From NCBI GenBank assembly GCA_029553545.1, contig JAKPKU010000141.1, positions 2,418-66,417 of the forward strand: a DNA stretch of 64,000 nt, in the 5' to 3' direction. Shown in pieces: positions 3,558-62,787 of the stretch. The notes under the pieces are model-generated. The model searched no databases. It was not told where the DNA came from and saw only the letters and a list, made by a program, of their open reading frames with translations. Numbering within the stretch: position 1 is the stretch's first letter; every line of letters begins with the position of its first letter. The stretch comes from Candidatus Cloacimonadota bacterium. Lineage in GTDB: Bacteria; Cloacimonadota; Cloacimonadia; Cloacimonadales; WRIO01. Made by a program: the position numbers and the translations under genes.

Positions 3558-3620
3558 TTTGTATAATTTTCTGACTTAAAAACATGCCTTCTTTGTCCTC
3601 CTTTTTCTAATAAAAAATGT

Positions 3621-3700
3621 CCTTTGGATCTCCTTTAGATTCCTATAAGATTACCTTAAGTTCTCCAAGATAGCAAGGGGAATGCAAGAGGGATCAAAGC
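3621..3700 (-). repeat. Copy A of the conserved intergenic hairpin element (core only, inverted, right arm deleted)
   Basis: The reverse complement reads ...GCATTCCCCTTGCTATCTTGGAGAACTTAAGGTAATCTTATAGGAATCTAAAGGAGAT. This shares long exact stretches with copies at 33221, 53739 and 23361. About 11 nt (GAATGTAAAGG) of the 3' arm are missing. Confidence 0.8.
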
Positions 3701-3886
3701 AGATAATTATATGTAAATATAGATAGTTAGCCCTGCTGTTAAATTGTTTATAAATATCAAGCGAGAGACATGTAATTTTGAGGTAAAAAGAGCCCTTCTT
3801 TTGACCTAAAAAAATAATATTATTATCACTTTTCTTCATTGAAAAAATAAGGGTTAGAGAAAAAATCTCATTCTAAAATAAATATC

Positions 3887-13315: not shown

Positions 13316-13661
13316 GTTTTCCTCCAATATCATAATGTTAAAAATGTTGTTTTTTGTCAATGAAAATGTTTTGTTTTGATTTAAGTGAAACGTAAAATAG
13401 TAATTATGAGGCTGTTGCATAGTGATCAAAATAACTTATTAAAAAAGAATGAGAAATTATAGAGGTGTTGATTAATGCACAAACTTGGTTTTCAGACTCG
13501 AAGCAAGCTGAAAATTGAGAGCTGAGATATGAAATGTAATCGATCTGAGCCCACTAAGGAGAGTTGTTTGTAAAAAAATCACCTCTAAACCCGCTCGTAG
13601 TAGGCATCTGCCGATTTAGATGAAAATAGTTTTCAAAAAACCCCATTTTGTCCTGCCAATA

Positions 13662-13738
13662 TATATAGAGGGGTTGATTTAATTTATGATTCTGCTTTAT
13701 TCTTTTATAAGCTATTTTGGTTACTATGCAATACCCTC
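13662..13738 (+). repeat. 5'-module-only relative (X) of the intergenic element family
   Basis: TATATAGAGGGGTTGATTTAATTTATGATTCTGCTTTATTCTTTTATAAGCTATTTTGGTTACTATGCAATACCCTC. By eye it is about 80 percent identical to the reverse complement of 29898-29976. It shares TTTATTCTTTT(T)ATA with copy C and CTATTTTGGT with copy D. Confidence 0.65.
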
Positions 13739-13923
13739 TAATAATATTGCACAGATTTAATATCTCTTTTTAAGCAGAAGATGCTTATTGTTGGGTATTT
13801 TTTGTCAAGTATTATAGCATTTTATTGATTGTTAAAAATAAGAAAAGTAGTACTTGACAGCAATGACATAGCAGAATTTATTGGGTTTGGGTTAGGAATA
13901 GTATATGTTTTTGGGGTATTATA

Positions 13924-22476: not shown

Positions 22477-22646
22477 ATTTATTATTAGCAATATTATCAA
22501 TAGAAACACGATATTTTATACGATAGCCTCAAATATGATTTACTTCATTATAGGTATTTACAATAAAGAATGTATGTGTAACTTATTAAAAGATAGCTGT
22601 TTTGCTTGATAGCAAAAAGAAATAATAATAAATATACAAAAAAGTA

Positions 22647-22675
22647 TTGACAAGAAAAGGGGCGTTTCATAATTT
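22647..22675 (+). promoter_or_regulatory. Sigma70-like promoter of the tRNA array
   Basis: TTGACA, 17 nt, TAATTT, about 30 nt upstream of tRNA-Ser. Confidence 0.55.
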
Positions 22676-22706
22676 GAACATAATTGATTAATAGATGTGA
22701 AGGCAT

Positions 22707-22792
22707 GGAGGAATAGTCCTAATTGGTAAGGCAGCGGTCTTGAAAACCGCCGGGTTATGCCCATGGGGGTTCGAATCCCTCTTCCTCCGCCA
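22707..22792 (+). tRNA. tRNA-Ser (anticodon UGA)
   Basis: Acceptor GGAGGAA/TTCCTCC, anticodon arm GCGGT-CTTGAAA-ACCGC, long variable arm, T-loop GGTTCGAATCC, encoded CCA. Confidence 0.9.
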
Positions 22793-22818
22793 TTTTAAAG
22801 TGTCCAACAAACATAGTT

Positions 22819-22911
<93 letters not shown>

Positions 22912-22928
22912 GAATGATAAAACTTTGC

Positions 22929-23003
22929 TGGGTAGTCGCCAAGTGGTAAGGCAACGGGTTTTGGTTCCGTCATCCGTAGGTTCGAATCCTGCCTACCCAG
23001 CCA
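22929..23003 (+). tRNA. tRNA-Gln (anticodon UUG)
   Basis: U1-A72 acceptor TGGGTAG/CTACCCA, anticodon arm ACGGG-TTTTGGT-TCCGT, encoded CCA. Confidence 0.88.
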
Positions 23004-23008
23004 TTAAT

Positions 23009-23082
23009 TGGGATGTCGTCTAATGGTAGGACACCGGTCTCTGGATCCGTTTGTCGGGGTTCGAATCCCTGCATCCCAGCCA
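23009..23082 (+). tRNA. tRNA-Gln (anticodon CUG), anticodon stem with two mismatches
   Basis: Acceptor TGGGATG/CATCCCA, good D and T arms. The anticodon arm CCGGT-CTCTGGA-TCCGT has only three Watson-Crick pairs. Confidence 0.7.
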
Positions 23083-23132: not shown

Positions 23133-23177
23133 ATGCTCAGATTTTTTAAACTACAAATTTGACAATGCTATGCCCCC

Positions 23178-23452
23178 TTGATTAATGAGGGTGTTGAATA
23201 GAAAGTTAAAACAACATGTAAAAATTATAGCTTGCAAATTGCCTAATTTTCCTATTAAAAAAGGTATAATAAAACACAAAAATACCTGTTATAAAATCTA
23301 TTTTCTCCTCTTTTCATTAATTATTTACTTAGTTTTATATATCATTATTTAACATATAGATGCCTGTGTGACTCCCCTTACATTCCCTTTGCTATCTTGG
23401 AGAATGAAAGAGATTCTTATAGGAATTTAAAGGGAATGTAACTGAGATTAAT
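23178..23452 (+). repeat. Copy B of the ~275-nt intergenic element (full length; core 23361-23450)
   Basis: Carries the landmarks TTGATTAAT..GAATAG..TTGCCTAATTTT..ACAAAAATACC..TTTTCTCCTCTTTTCA, then the core TGCCTGTGTGACTCCCCTTACATTCCCTTTGCTATCTTGGAGAATGAAAGAGATTCTTATAGGAATTTAAAGGGAATGTAACTGAGATTA. Confidence 0.85.
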
Positions 23453-23572
23453 TATGAATTTATAAGATATAGAAAAATAACTGTTTTCTTTTAATAACGA
23501 TGATTGTTAAATTTGTAATTTGAAGATTATGCACCCCCTGATTAATCTAAATACTAAAAAGCTACTTTTTTA

Positions 23573-29897: not shown

Positions 29898-29976
29898 AAG
29901 GCTATTGCATAGTACCCAAATTAACTAATAAGAGAATAAAGCAGAATAATAAATTAAAACTATACTCTCTGTATAA
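29898..29976 (-). repeat. 5'-module-only relative (Y) of the intergenic element family
   Basis: The reverse complement TATACAGAGAGTATAGTTTTAATTTATTATTCTGCTTTATTCTCTTATTAGTTAATTTGGGTACTATGCAATAGCCTTT aligns with 13662-13738. Confidence 0.65.
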
Positions 29977-32935: not shown

Positions 32936-33044
32936 TTTCTCCTTTATCCTTTTTTACTATTTATTCAAAATAATGTAGCAAATAGCATGCCAAATTATTG
33001 TTTTTTAGTGTGATAAGTGATAATTCTTAAGACAAATTACCACA

Positions 33045-33308
33045 ATGTGGAGTAAAAAAAATATGCAATGATGAAAAATCATCTAGCCAAAAAGTTGCCA
33101 AATTTATTCTTTTTATACGGACAAAAAATATCCAAATAATCATAATCTCATACCTATTTTTCTCACTTTTCTCTATTTCTTTGGTCATGCTCCTAAATAT
33201 CTTTATTTCAGTGTGTTATCCTTGTGACTCCCTTTACATTCCCCTTGCTATCTTGGAGAATGAAAGGAGATCTTATAGGAATCAAAAGGGAATGAAAGGG
33301 AGATTTAT
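33045..33308 (+). repeat. Copy C of the ~275-nt intergenic element (core 33221-33308; 5' boundary approximate)
   Basis: Carries TTGCCAAATTTATTCTTTTTATA..ACAAAAAATATCC..TTTTTCTCACTTTTC, then the core CTTGTGACTCCCTTTACATTCCCCTTGCTATCTTGGAGAATGAAAGGAGATCTTATAGGAATCAAAAGGGAATGAAAGGGAGATTTAT. Confidence 0.85.
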
Positions 33309-33731
33309 TGTTGATTTTTCTTGATAAAAGAGATTGAGGATTTTGGTATAATTCTACTTCTTAATATCATGAAAAGATAATTCCTAATCTAACCGAGATG
33401 TCGTATATAGTTTGCTTCTAATATTGGCAAATACAAACTTCTCATTATTAACAGCTTAGGATAGATGCAAGTACATAGGATATGGTCTGCTATTGGTCAA
33501 TTCAAATAACAGTCCATCAAGCCTTATTTAGGCTCACAGTCTTGAAGAATAATAAATAAAACGTGAGTTTCGAGTGTTGCAAGTCTTTTTAGTATTATGC
33601 ATTAAACTTTTATTATGAATTATTTTATGCTTAGTCTTTAGCTATTTTGCGAGTTAAGGTAAATACGAATAGTTTTTGCTTGACATAATTGTTATTATTA
33701 AAAATAGTCAATTTGGAATATTGGAGGGTTT

Positions 33732-53556: not shown

Positions 53557-53830
53557 AAAGTGATTACAAATAAGAATAGTAAAATTTAACAACTACCAAA
53601 AAAAACAGCTTCGAAATTGCCAAATTTTACTATTTTGGTAGATACAAAAAAGTACAAATATCCCTGTTAGCAGGTCTGTTTTTCTCTCTTTTCACTAATT
53701 TCCTACACTGTGTTGTATATGACTATTTATCAAACACATGCCTATGTGATTTCCTTTACATTCCCCTTGCTATCTTGGAGAATGAAAGGTAATCTTATAG
53801 GAATCTAAAGGGAATGTAAAGGAGATTTAT
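53557..53830 (+). repeat. Copy D of the ~275-nt intergenic element (full length; core 53739-53830)
   Basis: Carries GTGATTA..GAATAG..TTGCCAAATTTT..CTATTTTGGTAGATACAAAAAAGTACAAATATCC..TTTTTCTCTCTTTTCAC, then the core TGCCTATGTGATTTCCTTTACATTCCCCTTGCTATCTTGGAGAATGAAAGGTAATCTTATAGGAATCTAAAGGGAATGTAAAGGAGATTTAT. Confidence 0.88.
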
Positions 53831-54160
53831 AATGCGTTTTTATGACAGAAAAAAAGAGATGTCATGTTATCTGTAATTTTCAGCAATAAAGATTGTAGAT
53901 TATATAATCGAGAAAACTTCAAAGAAATAAAGAAAAATCTTGACAGATACTAATAGGTTTTGTTAATATCTTTTAAATGTATTAATTTACAAATAAGTAA
54001 TGTGTATTTATATTGGTAATCTTCAATTAAAAAGGGTTTTATGAATTTAGTTAAAGTGGAAATGTGGCATTTATTATTAGCAGTGATCTTTTCAATTCTT
54101 GCAGTTGTATTAAAACAATTAACAGTATGATCAAGGCAATTAGTACAAAAAGAGTTTAAT

Positions 54161-62576: not shown

Positions 62577-62662
62577 AAAAGAAAAATTATAATGGCAAGT
62601 AAATCTGCTGAGCACTAATATATTAGGCTTTTTATAAAAAAAACAAATATATTAAAATCATG

Positions 62663-62691
62663 CTTGACAAAAAATATATACTTTAATAATT
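62663..62691 (+). promoter_or_regulatory. Sigma70-like promoter of tRNA-Leu
   Basis: TTGACA, 17 nt, TAATTT, the same -10 as the Ser/Gln array promoter. Confidence 0.55.
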
Positions 62692-62701
62692 TGCTTAAAG
62701 T

Positions 62702-62787
62702 GCGAAAGTGGCGGAATTGGCAGACGCGCTGGACTTAGGATCCAGTGGCCATAGGCCTTAGGGGTTCAAGTCCCCTCTTTCGTACCA
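62702..62787 (+). tRNA. tRNA-Leu (anticodon UAG)
   Basis: Acceptor GCGAAAG/CTTTCGT (G1-U72 wobble), anticodon arm CTGGA-CTTAGGA-TCCAG, long variable arm, T-loop GGTTCAAGTCC, encoded CCA. Confidence 0.88.

What the first reader, a model, noticed from the sequence alone, without database searches (positions are those of the whole stretch)
53557..53830. Unrecognised ~275-nt intergenic element present in four gaps, ending in a highly conserved ~85-nt hairpin core
Three full copies lie on the plus strand: 23178-23452, about 33045-33308, and 53557-53830. One core-only copy lies on the minus strand at 3621-3700. The 3' core is nearly identical in all copies, with consensus TGTGA.TCCCTTTACATTCCCCTTGCTATCTTGGAGAATGAAAGG.ATCTTATAGGAATC.AAAGGGAATGTAAAGGAGATTTAT. 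The ~190 nt upstream is clearly homologous but much more diverged, with shared landmarks TGATTA, GAATAG, TTGCCAAATTT, ACAAAAAATATCC and a pyrimidine box TTTTCTCNCTTTTCA. In the 96 nt preceding the core, copies B and D differ by 24 substitutions and 0 indels. The distance from TTGCC to the element end is about 213 nt in all three full copies. Length is therefore conserved while sequence drifts. No transposase, reverse transcriptase or other ORF is associated. Every copy sits in an unusually long non-coding gap, two of them directly after terminators. I do not recognise it as tRNA-like, 6S, SRP, tmRNA, RNase P, a known riboswitch or an IS end. Candidate explanations are a family of paralogous small RNAs, a structured regulatory cassette, or an old MITE-like repeat maintained by selection on its hairpin.
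Basis: seen in the sequence. Interest (0 to 1): 0.78.

Follow-up and report, generated by a model that had tools for sequence, protein, structure and literature searches.

The report
Mobile DNA repeat with ultraconserved core
The repeat is a small non-coding jumping-gene relic (a MITE, about 355 bp) found in one lineage of uncultured Cloacimonadales bacteria; that makes it an ordinary kind of element, but its central ~60-85 bases, which look like a promoter inside an inverted repeat, stay almost unchanged while the rest of each copy decays.

Summary
The four copies and their near-identical core are real. The pattern gave 0 matches in 100 shuffles.

The unit is larger than reported, about 355-375 bp. 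It continues roughly 100 nt past the hairpin. It has the marks of a non-autonomous transposable element (MITE):
- terminal inverted repeats, GAGGGTGTTGCATAG...CTATGCAACACCCTC;
- 5-bp AT-rich target-site duplications in 5 of 10 copies that keep both ends;
- copies 97% identical at unrelated sites with different duplications;
- a second repeat family and a 72-bp mini-element that share the same ends;
- one nested insertion.

No ORF shows coding constraint, and no transposase partner was found. Rfam gives no hit. The hairpin shows no covariation: 88.3% of cells pair, the same as in shuffles.

The core is conserved at the sequence level. It is about 90% identical across copies, against 53-58% for the terminal repeats. 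No detected copy has a changed central motif.

The only promoter-like site that sits in the same register across copies lies inside the core: TTTACA-17-GAGAAT, in 25 of 39 copies. A Shine-Dalgarno sequence and an ATG follow in the distal arm.

My best reading is a MITE carrying a promoter and leader module, possibly inherited from a parent transposon. That the element is a MITE is near certain. What the core does is inferred only. The family is confined to one Cloacimonadales lineage. This is a new member of a known kind, of moderate interest.

The parts
53560..53912 (+). Copy D, the finding: an old type-1 MITE copy with decayed ends
   Evidence: nhmmer profile positions 17-353 map to 53575-53912. 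The 5' end region is about half mutated relative to the TIR consensus.
53749..53826 (+). Core inverted repeat: arms 53749-53768 and 53807-53826, separated by 38 nt
   Evidence: the repeat finder I1: 20-nt arms, 90% complementary. RNA fold gives -30.5 kcal/mol, z = -4.8. No covariation.
53755..53783 (+). Sigma-70-like promoter motif inside the core: TTTACA (53755-53760), 17-nt spacer, GAGAAT (53778-53783). The predicted start is near 53790.
   Evidence: Found by the promoter scan. It sits at the same alignment column in 25 of 39 non-redundant copies. The window's tRNA promoters are TTGACA-17-TAATTT.
53785..53822 (+). Weak period-11 array (consensus AAAGGGAATCT, 3.5 units) in the distal half of the core
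   Evidence: Tandem Repeats Finder: score 41, 70% matches.
53818..53834 (+). Shine-Dalgarno-like AAAGGAG in the distal arm, plus ATG at 53832-53834, followed by a 14-codon ORF with no coding signal
   Evidence: Read from the sequence. ORF relics are listed. Codon positions show no periodicity, 0.73/0.68/0.71.
53713..53732 (+). Conserved upstream block TTGTATATGACTATTTATCA, about -77 to -58 relative to the predicted start
   Evidence: About 85-90% column identity across 39 copies.
53678..53696 (+). Pyrimidine box TGTTTTTCTCTCTTTTCAC, preceded by a CCTG...CAGG mini-palindrome
   Evidence: Conserved block. The mini-hairpin is not supported by pair counts: 51% paired, the same as shuffles.
23187..23541 (+). 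Copy A: a complete 355-bp type-1 MITE. TIR-L is 23187-23201 (GAGGGTGTTGAATAG). TIR-R is 23528-23541.
   Evidence: It is 82-85% identical to L056, L004, L037 and L039 across the whole element.
23182..23186 (.). TTAAT, the left copy of the 5-bp target-site duplication of copy A. The right copy is at 23542-23546.
   Evidence: Caveat: the direct repeat extends to about 14 nt because a TIR-R-like fragment (CTATGCCCCCTTG, 23166-23179) lies just upstream.
33042..33388 (+). Copy B: an old type-1 copy. It is about 51% identical to the other copies outside the core and 85-91% identical inside it.
3565..3869 (-). Copy C: a strongly decayed type-1 copy. Its -10 motif reads GAGAAC and the hairpin is not stable.
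   Evidence: nhmmer gives 122 bits over profile positions 7-335. Fold z = +0.1. Sequence.
13405..13739 (+). Type-2 MITE: a different interior with the same terminal repeats and the same ~45-nt terminal module
   Evidence: There are 32 hits in the fetched loci.
29898..29970 (+). A 72-bp mini-element made of the two shared end modules only (degenerate)
   Evidence: A clean counterpart lies at about L052 598-669.

Best explanation
**What it is.** The repeat is a non-autonomous DNA transposon (MITE) of about 355-375 bp, specific to one lineage of Cloacimonadales.

**Shown**
- It is bounded by terminal inverted repeats, GAGGGTGTTGCATAG...CTATGCAACACCCTC, with weaker end similarity extending to about 30-45 nt.
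- It makes 5-bp AT-rich target-site duplications and carries no gene.
- It has moved recently, presumably using a transposase supplied in trans.
- That transposase also moves two other size classes that share the same ends.

**Inferred**
- The ~85-nt "hairpin core" is the element's internal control module, not a structure-selected RNA.
- A sigma-70-type promoter (TTTACA-17-GAGAAT) sits in the proximal arm and centre of an inverted repeat.
- The distal arm carries a Shine-Dalgarno sequence, followed by an ATG.
- A transcript started at this promoter would lack the proximal arm and have a free ribosome-binding site.
- A transcript reading in from outside would contain both arms and fold the site away. 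This is the logic of IS10/IS50 protection against external promoters.
- The module may therefore be the promoter and leader of the parent transposon. In the MITE copies it now emits a short leader-like RNA of about 100-120 nt or feeds transcription toward the right end.
- Its central ~60 nt are held by sequence-specific constraint (RNA polymerase and/or a regulator, or the 5' end of the RNA), because they stay invariant in copies whose terminal repeats have decayed.

**Sub-confidences:** MITE, about 0.93. Core as a promoter/leader module, about 0.4. The overall confidence of 0.55 is for the combined statement.
For: **MITE**
- Terminal repeats are seen in the best-kept copies.
- Perfect 5-bp duplications occur in 5 of 10 copies that keep both ends: ATAAT, TCTAT, AATCT, AGGTA and TTAAT.
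- L004 and L037 are 97.2% identical, yet their flanks are unrelated (about 60%, the same level as between the other, unrelated loci) and their duplications differ.
- L054 is about 98% identical to L037 but carries a 295-nt type-2 insertion.
- The same terminal 15-mer bounds a second family and a 72-bp mini-element.
- Copies are always intergenic and occur in either orientation relative to neighbouring genes.
- The genes downstream are functionally unrelated.
- There is no coding signal.

**Core**
- The only promoter-like site in register across copies is TT[TG][AG]CA-17-GAGAAT inside the core, in 25 of 39 copies.
- The organism uses canonical TTGACA-17-TAATTT promoters at its tRNA genes.
- AAAGGAG plus ATG follows, and the distal arm pairs with the proximal arm.
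- The conserved zone runs from about -77 to +45 around the predicted start.
- Column identity is 92% in the core, or 90% without the 21 positions used for fishing. It is 53-58% in the terminal repeats and 61-75% in the rest of the element.
- Core identity stays near 87% whether the rest of the element is 46% or 83% identical.
- nhmmer found no copy covering the core region that lacks the exact central motif, in 510 kb of lineage contigs plus the window.
Against: - No transcript data exist, so promoter activity and RNA ends are untested.
- GAGAAT is a mediocre -10 motif: it lacks the T at -12 and has no extended TG.
- The promoter spacer and the first ~20 transcribed bases are invariant. A promoter alone does not require that.
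- No autonomous parent element with this module upstream of a transposase gene was found in any fetched sequence.
- The sequence after the ATG shows no codon periodicity, and many copies have stops at codon 3-4.
- The arms show no compensatory changes, so fold-back pairing is not demonstrably selected.
- About a third of copies face a convergent gene, so the element is not generally a promoter for a downstream gene.
- In the few orthologous pairs available, the core is only slightly more conserved than the rest: 2.9% against 3.8% differences.
- The type-2 family also has an interior better conserved than its ends. Part of the core-versus-ends contrast may therefore be a general property of these elements.
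Confidence: 0.55

Rival explanations
1. The cargo is a trans-acting small RNA gene. Each copy would express an RNA of about 100-120 nt from the core promoter. Its invariant 5' end (AAUCUUAUAGGAAUCUAAAGG) would be a seed or protein-binding region with several GGA motifs. Transposition would then have spread a family of paralogous sRNA genes that the host keeps.
For: - The highest conservation lies at the predicted promoter and the first ~20 transcribed bases.
- A weak hairpin plus T-run sits at a consistent offset of 38-53 nt past the core in about 18 of 39 copies. It is a strong terminator in L050 and L011.
- Copies occur in any orientation, as independent genes would.
- The core is retained in copies that can no longer move.
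Against: - There are no expression data.
- The terminator scan is not discriminating: 64% of shuffled sequences also give a hit.
- There is no covariation anywhere.
- Tens of copies per genome is far more than known sRNA families have.
- No Rfam family matches.
Confidence: 0.2
2. The core is a DNA site for a sequence-specific protein, such as an operator for a transposon or host regulator, or an internal recombination/resolution site. It would be built from one inverted and three to four direct ~11-bp units (GGnAATnTAAA).
For: - Conservation is of primary sequence, not of pairing.
- A period-11 array sits in the distal half, with an inverted unit in the proximal arm.
- Each half is invariant but the two halves differ, which indicates a directional site.
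- From my own knowledge, some Tn3-family transposons, which also make 5-bp duplications, carry such sites next to one end.
Against: - The array is weak: TRF score 41, 70% matches.
- Conservation does not follow the 11-bp unit. Different positions are invariant in different units.
- The inverted units are 38 bp apart, unlike known recombinase core sites.
- No recombinase or regulator partner has been identified.
Confidence: 0.15
3. One reading: a structured RNA hairpin, either cis-regulatory or an mRNA-stabilising or terminating stem, kept by selection for folding.
For: - The fold is strong in 3 of 4 window copies, with z from -2.6 to -4.8.
- Three invariant G-U pairs in the inner helix would be C-A mismatches on the other strand.
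- The loop length is fixed at 11 nt.
Against: - Outer-stem pairing equals the shuffles: 88.3% against 88.3%, and 292 of 500 shuffles reach the observed value.
- Among variable pairs, G-U-type and C-A-type changes are about equally common.
- RNAalifold gives a covariation term of only -0.14 kcal/mol.
- Function through a stem would not need an invariant sequence.
Confidence: 0.08
4. The core has no function. Its uniformity would come from concerted evolution (gene conversion among copies) or from many recent copies of masters that share the core.
For: - The core is the longest near-identical tract shared by copies, so it is the best substrate for conversion.
- In the orthologous pair C/L008 the element differs at 17/288 + 5/82 positions while the flanks differ at 2/400. 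This hints at non-vertical change.
- Some copies are young.
Against: - Copies with about 50% divergence outside the core keep about 57 central positions unchanged.
- The boundaries of the invariant block are the same in all copies. Conversion tracts would not produce that.
- The terminal repeats were also identical at insertion, yet they decay.
Confidence: 0.1

Closest known systems
[quoted passage not shown]
   Same: - Small (262 bp there, about 355 bp here) and non-coding.
- Long terminal inverted repeats.
- Insertion into AT-rich sites with 5-bp duplications.
- Mobilised in trans.
- Forms mosaics and size variants that share the same ends (paper read).
   Different: - The terminal repeat begins GAGGG and, by eye, does not show the Tn3-family GGGG...TAAG pattern (that pattern is from my own knowledge).
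- No Tn3-type or other transposase partner was found.
- The interior carries an ultraconserved module.
Neisseria Correia elements (CREE). Siddique et al. 2011 is cited in the reference list seen.
   Same: A multi-copy intergenic MITE whose interior carries promoters and folds into a long RNA hairpin when transcribed, so that insertions alter neighbouring gene expression.
   Different: From my own knowledge, Correia elements are 100-155 bp, have TA duplications and 26-bp repeats, and are uniformly similar to one another. Here the element is 355 bp with 5-bp duplications and very uneven conservation.
IS10/IS50 protection from external promoters (fold-back inhibition; Davis, Simons and Kleckner 1985, own knowledge)
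   Same: The layout is the same. The element's own promoter lies inside an inverted repeat, and the ribosome-binding site lies in the distal arm. Only read-through transcripts can fold the site away.
   Different: This is a resemblance in how it would work, not membership of the family. There is no transposase ORF here. No overlapping antisense RNA is predicted, because the minus-strand motif would start about 4 nt away, back to back. Nothing has been tested.
REP/BIME, ERIC, BOX and RUP intergenic repeats
   Same: Abundant, palindromic intergenic repeats that often cluster or abut one another.
   Different: Those repeats are shorter. REPs lack terminal repeats and target duplications and depend on RAYT (tyrosine-type) transposases. 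None has this sequence.
Families of paralogous sRNAs (for example Bacteroidetes FopS, RF04319)
   Same: Multi-copy intergenic units with a conserved central part in the FCB group of phyla.
   Different: The only Rfam signal was a sub-threshold hit to the neighbouring gene's terminator (20.8 bits against a gathering score of 56). There is no homology and no transcript evidence.

Membership tests
MITE (non-autonomous DNA transposon) | Terminal inverted repeats | tested here: met
   GAGGGTGTTGCATAG / CTATGCAACACCCTC, with 0-2 mismatches to consensus at each end in L037, L039 and L004. In window copy A the left repeat has 1 mismatch and the right repeat 5.
MITE (non-autonomous DNA transposon) | Target-site duplication of fixed length | tested here: met
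   Perfect 5-bp duplications in 5 of 10 copies that keep both ends, and one more with 1 mismatch. This fraction fits the 12-25% divergence of those copies.
MITE (non-autonomous DNA transposon) | Small, multi-copy, no transposase gene | tested here: met
   The element is 338-368 bp. There are about 47 distinct cores in public metagenome contigs and 4 in the window. Only short ORF relics are present, and they show no codon periodicity.
MITE (non-autonomous DNA transposon) | Evidence of mobility (same element at different sites; insertion polymorphism) | tested here: met
   L004 and L037 are 97.2% identical with unrelated flanks and different duplications. A type-2 element is inserted into the L054 copy but is absent from the 98%-identical L037 copy.
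MITE (non-autonomous DNA transposon) | Autonomous partner with matching terminal repeats | tested here: inconclusive
   None was found in 510 kb of lineage contigs. Hits to the terminal 15-mer in viral contigs are chance matches.
TIME (Tn3-family-derived MITE) | 5-bp AT-rich duplication | tested here: met
   ATAAT, TCTAT, AATCT, AGGTA and TTAAT. Compare AAATT, AAATA and AATAT in PMC4133298.
TIME (Tn3-family-derived MITE) | About 38-bp terminal repeats homologous to Tn3-family repeats | tested here: inconclusive
   End similarity extends to about 30-45 nt. The sequence starts GAGGG, and I see no GGGG...TAAG frame. No Tn3 repeat library was available for comparison.
TIME (Tn3-family-derived MITE) | Mobilisation by a Tn3-family TnpA | not testable with these tools
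   No transposase has been identified.
Any Rfam RNA family | Score at or above the family gathering threshold | tested here: not met
   The window yields only tRNAs. The best sub-threshold hit on copy D is the Phe leader at 29.4 bits against 55. There is nothing in four other loci or on type-2.
Structured ncRNA (generic) | Base pairs kept by compensatory change | tested here: not met
   Core: 88.3% paired against a shuffle mean of 88.3%; covariation score 0.066 against 0.063. Small upstream hairpin: 51% against 53.5%.
Independent sRNA gene | Own promoter, discrete transcript, terminator | tested here: inconclusive
   A promoter-like motif is in register in 25 of 39 copies. A terminator-like feature is only weakly supported. 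Whether a transcript exists cannot be tested here.
IS10/IS50-type fold-back control (how it works, not membership) | Promoter inside the inverted repeat, ribosome-binding site in the distal arm, transposase ORF downstream | tested here: inconclusive
   The first two features are present by sequence. The ORF is absent or decayed.

The most novel reading that the evidence does not exclude
The invariant core is a domesticated module, either an sRNA gene or a regulator-bound promoter. Transposition would have copied it to tens of intergenic sites, and the host now keeps each copy under purifying selection. That would be a MITE-built regulatory network in an uncultured syntrophic phylum. It would be recognisable because the cargo outlives the transposon ends.
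Probability: 0.25. Interest if true: 0.6.

Novelty: new member of a known kind. Interest (0 to 1): 0.35.

Why it matters
It explains several unusually long non-coding gaps in this genome as transposon insertions rather than unknown RNA genes. That prevents a false "new structured RNA" call.

It documents a previously undescribed MITE superfamily in Cloacimonadales, a lineage known only from metagenomes. The superfamily has three size classes with shared ends, and it makes 5-bp duplications.

The uneven conservation, with an invariant ~60-nt centre and decaying ends, points to a mobile promoter or regulatory module. Such a module may influence neighbouring genes. If transcription is confirmed, this would be a clean natural case for studying how transposon cargo is retained after the transposon dies.

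Tried and rejected
1. **Rfam.** I scanned at gathering and E-value thresholds on the window, copy D, type-2 and four loci. There was no family hit; the weak miRNA and Phe-leader hits only reflect a long hairpin.
2. **RNA covariation.** RNAalifold on 39 copies found only the core hairpin, with a covariation term of -0.14. Pair counts for the core and for the CCTG/CAGG mini-hairpin equalled the shuffles.
3. **Closing-helix reading of the complementary ends.** I rejected this in favour of terminal inverted repeats, because of the target duplications and because other repeat families share the ends.
4. **Coding potential.** The 20-codon frame across the core lacks a conserved start and stop (read from the sequences). 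The ORF after the ATG shows no codon-position periodicity and frequent early stops. I therefore did not spend a protein-database search on it.
5. **5' leader of paralogous operons.** Rejected: the downstream genes are unrelated and about a third are convergent.
6. **Other sigma or promoter types.** I checked sigma-54, sigma-32 and the Bacteroidetes TAnnTTTG type by eye. None fitted, and the tRNA promoters are canonical sigma-70.
7. **Terminator scan downstream of the core.** It is too permissive in this AT-rich DNA, with 64% of shuffles giving a hit. Only the consistent position is suggestive.
8. **Partner transposase.** No long element bounded by the terminal repeats appears in the fetched loci. 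The viral-contig scan with the terminal 15-mer gave 70 chance hits with no extended module. The core is absent from viral contigs and plasmids.
9. **Empty orthologous site.** Relatives whose PpiD protein is 58-69% identical lack the element entirely (nhmmer, E up to 10). Synteny downstream is broken, so this is not a true empty site.
10. **Literature.** No paper contains the core or terminal-repeat sequences. Nothing turned up on repeats in Cloacimonas.

Full report

Yes, with corrections.

- A 38-nt core pattern occurs 3 times with up to 3 mismatches, against 0 in 100 dinucleotide shuffles.
- A profile built from many copies finds exactly four copies in the window: 53575-53912, 23184-23537, 33042-33388 and 3869-3565.
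- The cores differ at 7-12 of 85 positions.
- The core folds into a long hairpin in three copies (z = -4.4, -2.6, -4.8). It does not in the minus-strand copy.

**2. Where it comes from**

- Window proteins carry type IX secretion sorting domains.
- The neighbouring PpiD-like protein has its best relatives in Candidatus Cloacimonadota. One is 98% identical, on an 86.6-kb JGI contig; the next are at most 69% identical.
- An exact central pattern was found in only one of 185,579 species-representative genomes, a Cloacimonadales MAG with two contigs. A third hit was a chance match inside a gene.
- The same pattern was found in 60 metagenome stretches, of which 58 are true.
- Relatives whose PpiD is 58-69% identical have no copy in about 60 kb of unique sequence.
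- The family is therefore confined to a narrow lineage. Contigs that carry it have roughly one copy per 15-45 kb.

**3. The unit is a MITE, not a 275-nt element ending in a hairpin**

- Alignment of 40 non-redundant copies shows that homology runs about 100 nt past the hairpin. It also shows that the two ends are reverse complements: GAGGGTGTTGCATAG... and ...CTATGCAACACCCTC.
- I first considered a closing RNA helix. Several results point to terminal inverted repeats instead.
  - Of 10 copies that keep both ends, 5 are flanked by perfect 5-bp direct repeats: ATAAT, TCTAT, AATCT, AGGTA, and TTAAT for window copy A (23182-23186 and 23542-23546). One more has a single mismatch.
  - L004 and L037 are 97.2% identical but sit in unrelated flanks with different duplications.
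  - The same terminal 15-mer bounds a second family with an unrelated interior. That family is at window 13405-13739 and has 32 hits in the fetched loci. The 15-mer also bounds a 72-bp mini-element made of the two ends alone, at L052 598-669 and window 29898-29970.
  - The L054 copy is about 98% identical to L037 but is split by a 295-nt type-2 insertion. L002 carries another such insertion.
- Copies are always intergenic and occur in either orientation. With both neighbours known, 12 regions are divergent, 7 are tandem with the element co-oriented, 6 are tandem with it anti-oriented, and 5 are convergent.
- The genes downstream are functionally unrelated.
- No autonomous partner was found.
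- The 5-bp AT-rich duplications and long ends resemble Tn3-derived TIMEs (PMC4133298). I could not show that the terminal repeats are homologous to Tn3-family repeats.

**4. The hairpin core: what is and is not conserved**

- Column identity is 92% in the core, or 90% when the 21 positions used for fishing are left out. It is 53-58% in the terminal repeats and 61-75% elsewhere.
- Pairwise core identity stays near 87% whether the rest of the element is 46% or 83% identical. About 57 positions never change and about 25 vary freely.
- Every one of the 64 detected copies that covers the core has the exact central motif, although nhmmer would have found mutated ones. The invariance is therefore not only a result of how I searched.
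- The conservation is not of pairing.
  - With the hairpin imposed on 39 copies, 88.3% of cells pair, equal to the shuffle mean; 292 of 500 shuffles reach that value.
  - The covariation score is 0.066 against 0.063.
  - The inner 9-bp helix never varies.
  - Among variable pairs, G-U-type and C-A-type changes are about equally common.
  - RNAalifold finds no other conserved helix, and a candidate mini-hairpin upstream fails too.
- Rfam has nothing.
Selection, or some other homogenising force, acts on the sequence.

**5. Most likely mechanism (inferred)**

- The only sigma-70-like site that sits at the same alignment column across copies lies inside the core. It is TTTACA (or TTGACA/TTTGCA), a 17-nt spacer and GAGAAT, present in 25 of 39 copies (window 53755-53783).
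- The organism's tRNA promoters are canonical TTGACA-17-TAATTT.
- The -35 motif lies in the proximal arm, and the predicted start lies in the variable "loop".
- The distal arm carries AAAGGAG, followed 7 nt later by ATG.
- The conserved zone spans about -77 to +45 around that start.
- This is the layout by which IS10 and IS50 shield transposase translation from outside transcription (own knowledge). The element's own transcript lacks the proximal arm, whereas read-through transcripts fold the ribosome-binding site away.
- I therefore read the core as a promoter and leader module, possibly the parent transposon's control region. In MITE copies it is now followed only by decayed ORF relics.
  - Those relics show no codon periodicity (0.73/0.68/0.71), and many have stops at codon 3-4.
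  - A weak terminator-like hairpin sits at a consistent offset and is strong in L050 and L011.
- What this reading does not explain is why the spacer and the first ~20 transcribed bases are invariant even in immobile copies. That leaves three rivals open:
  - a trans-acting sRNA with a 5' seed;
  - a protein-binding site, for which a weak period-11 array exists;
  - gene conversion.
- Three cautions apply.
  - Copy C, its orthologue L008 and copy L027 have GAGAAC at the -10 motif; copy C also has an unstable hairpin, so not every copy is maintained.
  - Orthologous pairs are too few to show selection in place: 2.9% against 3.8% differences.
  - The type-2 family also has an interior better conserved than its ends.

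**6. Comparison and verdict**

- The element meets every testable defining feature of a MITE. It is undescribed: no database or literature match was found.
- It works like other cargo-bearing MITEs such as Correia elements. Its target duplications and long ends resemble TIMEs.
- It is a new member of a known kind. Its one unusual property is an ultraconserved internal module that outlasts the transposon ends.
- Interest is moderate (0.35).

Noticed in passing
window 13405-13739 (also L054 487-778, L002 ~704-1017, L010 215-504): A second MITE family ("type 2", about 290-330 bp) has the same terminal repeats and ~45-nt end module but an unrelated interior. A ~90-nt interior stretch is about 90% conserved (for example TAGGCATCTGCTGATTTAGGTGAAAATAGTTTTCAAAAAA) and looks structured. 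Rfam has no hit at E up to 0.1.
   Followed up: partly
window 29898-29970; L052 598-669: A 72-bp mini-element consists of the two shared end modules only: GAGGGTATTGCATAG...AACAACACCCTC. It is the smallest member of the superfamily.
   Followed up: partly
L039 3271-3835, L056 11721-12228, L007 13623-14101, L004 6790-7337, L046 989-1690, L021 2420-2907: Type-1 and type-2 elements very often abut or nest. In L039 the type-1 duplication TCTAT overlaps the last two bases of a type-2 end. This suggests that insertion is targeted to the ends of related elements.
   Followed up: partly
window 23166-23186 and 23528-23546: Just upstream of copy A lies a fragment resembling a right terminal repeat (CTATGCCCCCTTG). 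As a result the direct repeat flanking copy A is about 14 nt, not only the 5-bp TTAAT. Both share the unusual CCCCCT(T)GA variant. This may be the remnant of a tandem or partly deleted copy.
   Followed up: no
window 3565-3869 versus L008 3109-3387: In this orthologous pair the element differs at 22 of 370 positions while 400 nt of flanks differ at only 2. The element changes much faster than its surroundings, through relaxed constraint, hypermutability or gene conversion from other copies.
   Followed up: no
window 53785-53822 (same place in all copies): From the -10 motif onward, the core and the sequence after it read as successive 11-mers of the form GGnAATnTAAA. TRF reports period 11, 3.5 units and score 41. 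One inverted unit lies in the proximal arm. This may mean phased protein contacts or bent DNA.
   Followed up: partly
window 22640-22680 and 62660-62700: The tRNA genes (a cluster of four at 22707-23079 and one at 62702-62784) are preceded by textbook TTGACA-17-TAATTT promoters. This Cloacimonadota lineage therefore uses canonical sigma-70 promoters, not the Bacteroidetes type.
   Followed up: yes
window 23447-23458 and the same position in L056, L037, L039, L014, L035: In the youngest subfamily the Shine-Dalgarno sequence is followed by a conserved three-codon mini-ORF ending in TAA (ATG AAT TTA TAA, TTG AGT ATT TAA and similar). This is a start-stop or minigene-like arrangement of unknown meaning.
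   Followed up: no
window 3651-3839 (-): The 62-codon ORF listed here lies inside decayed MITE copy C and is most likely spurious.
   Followed up: no
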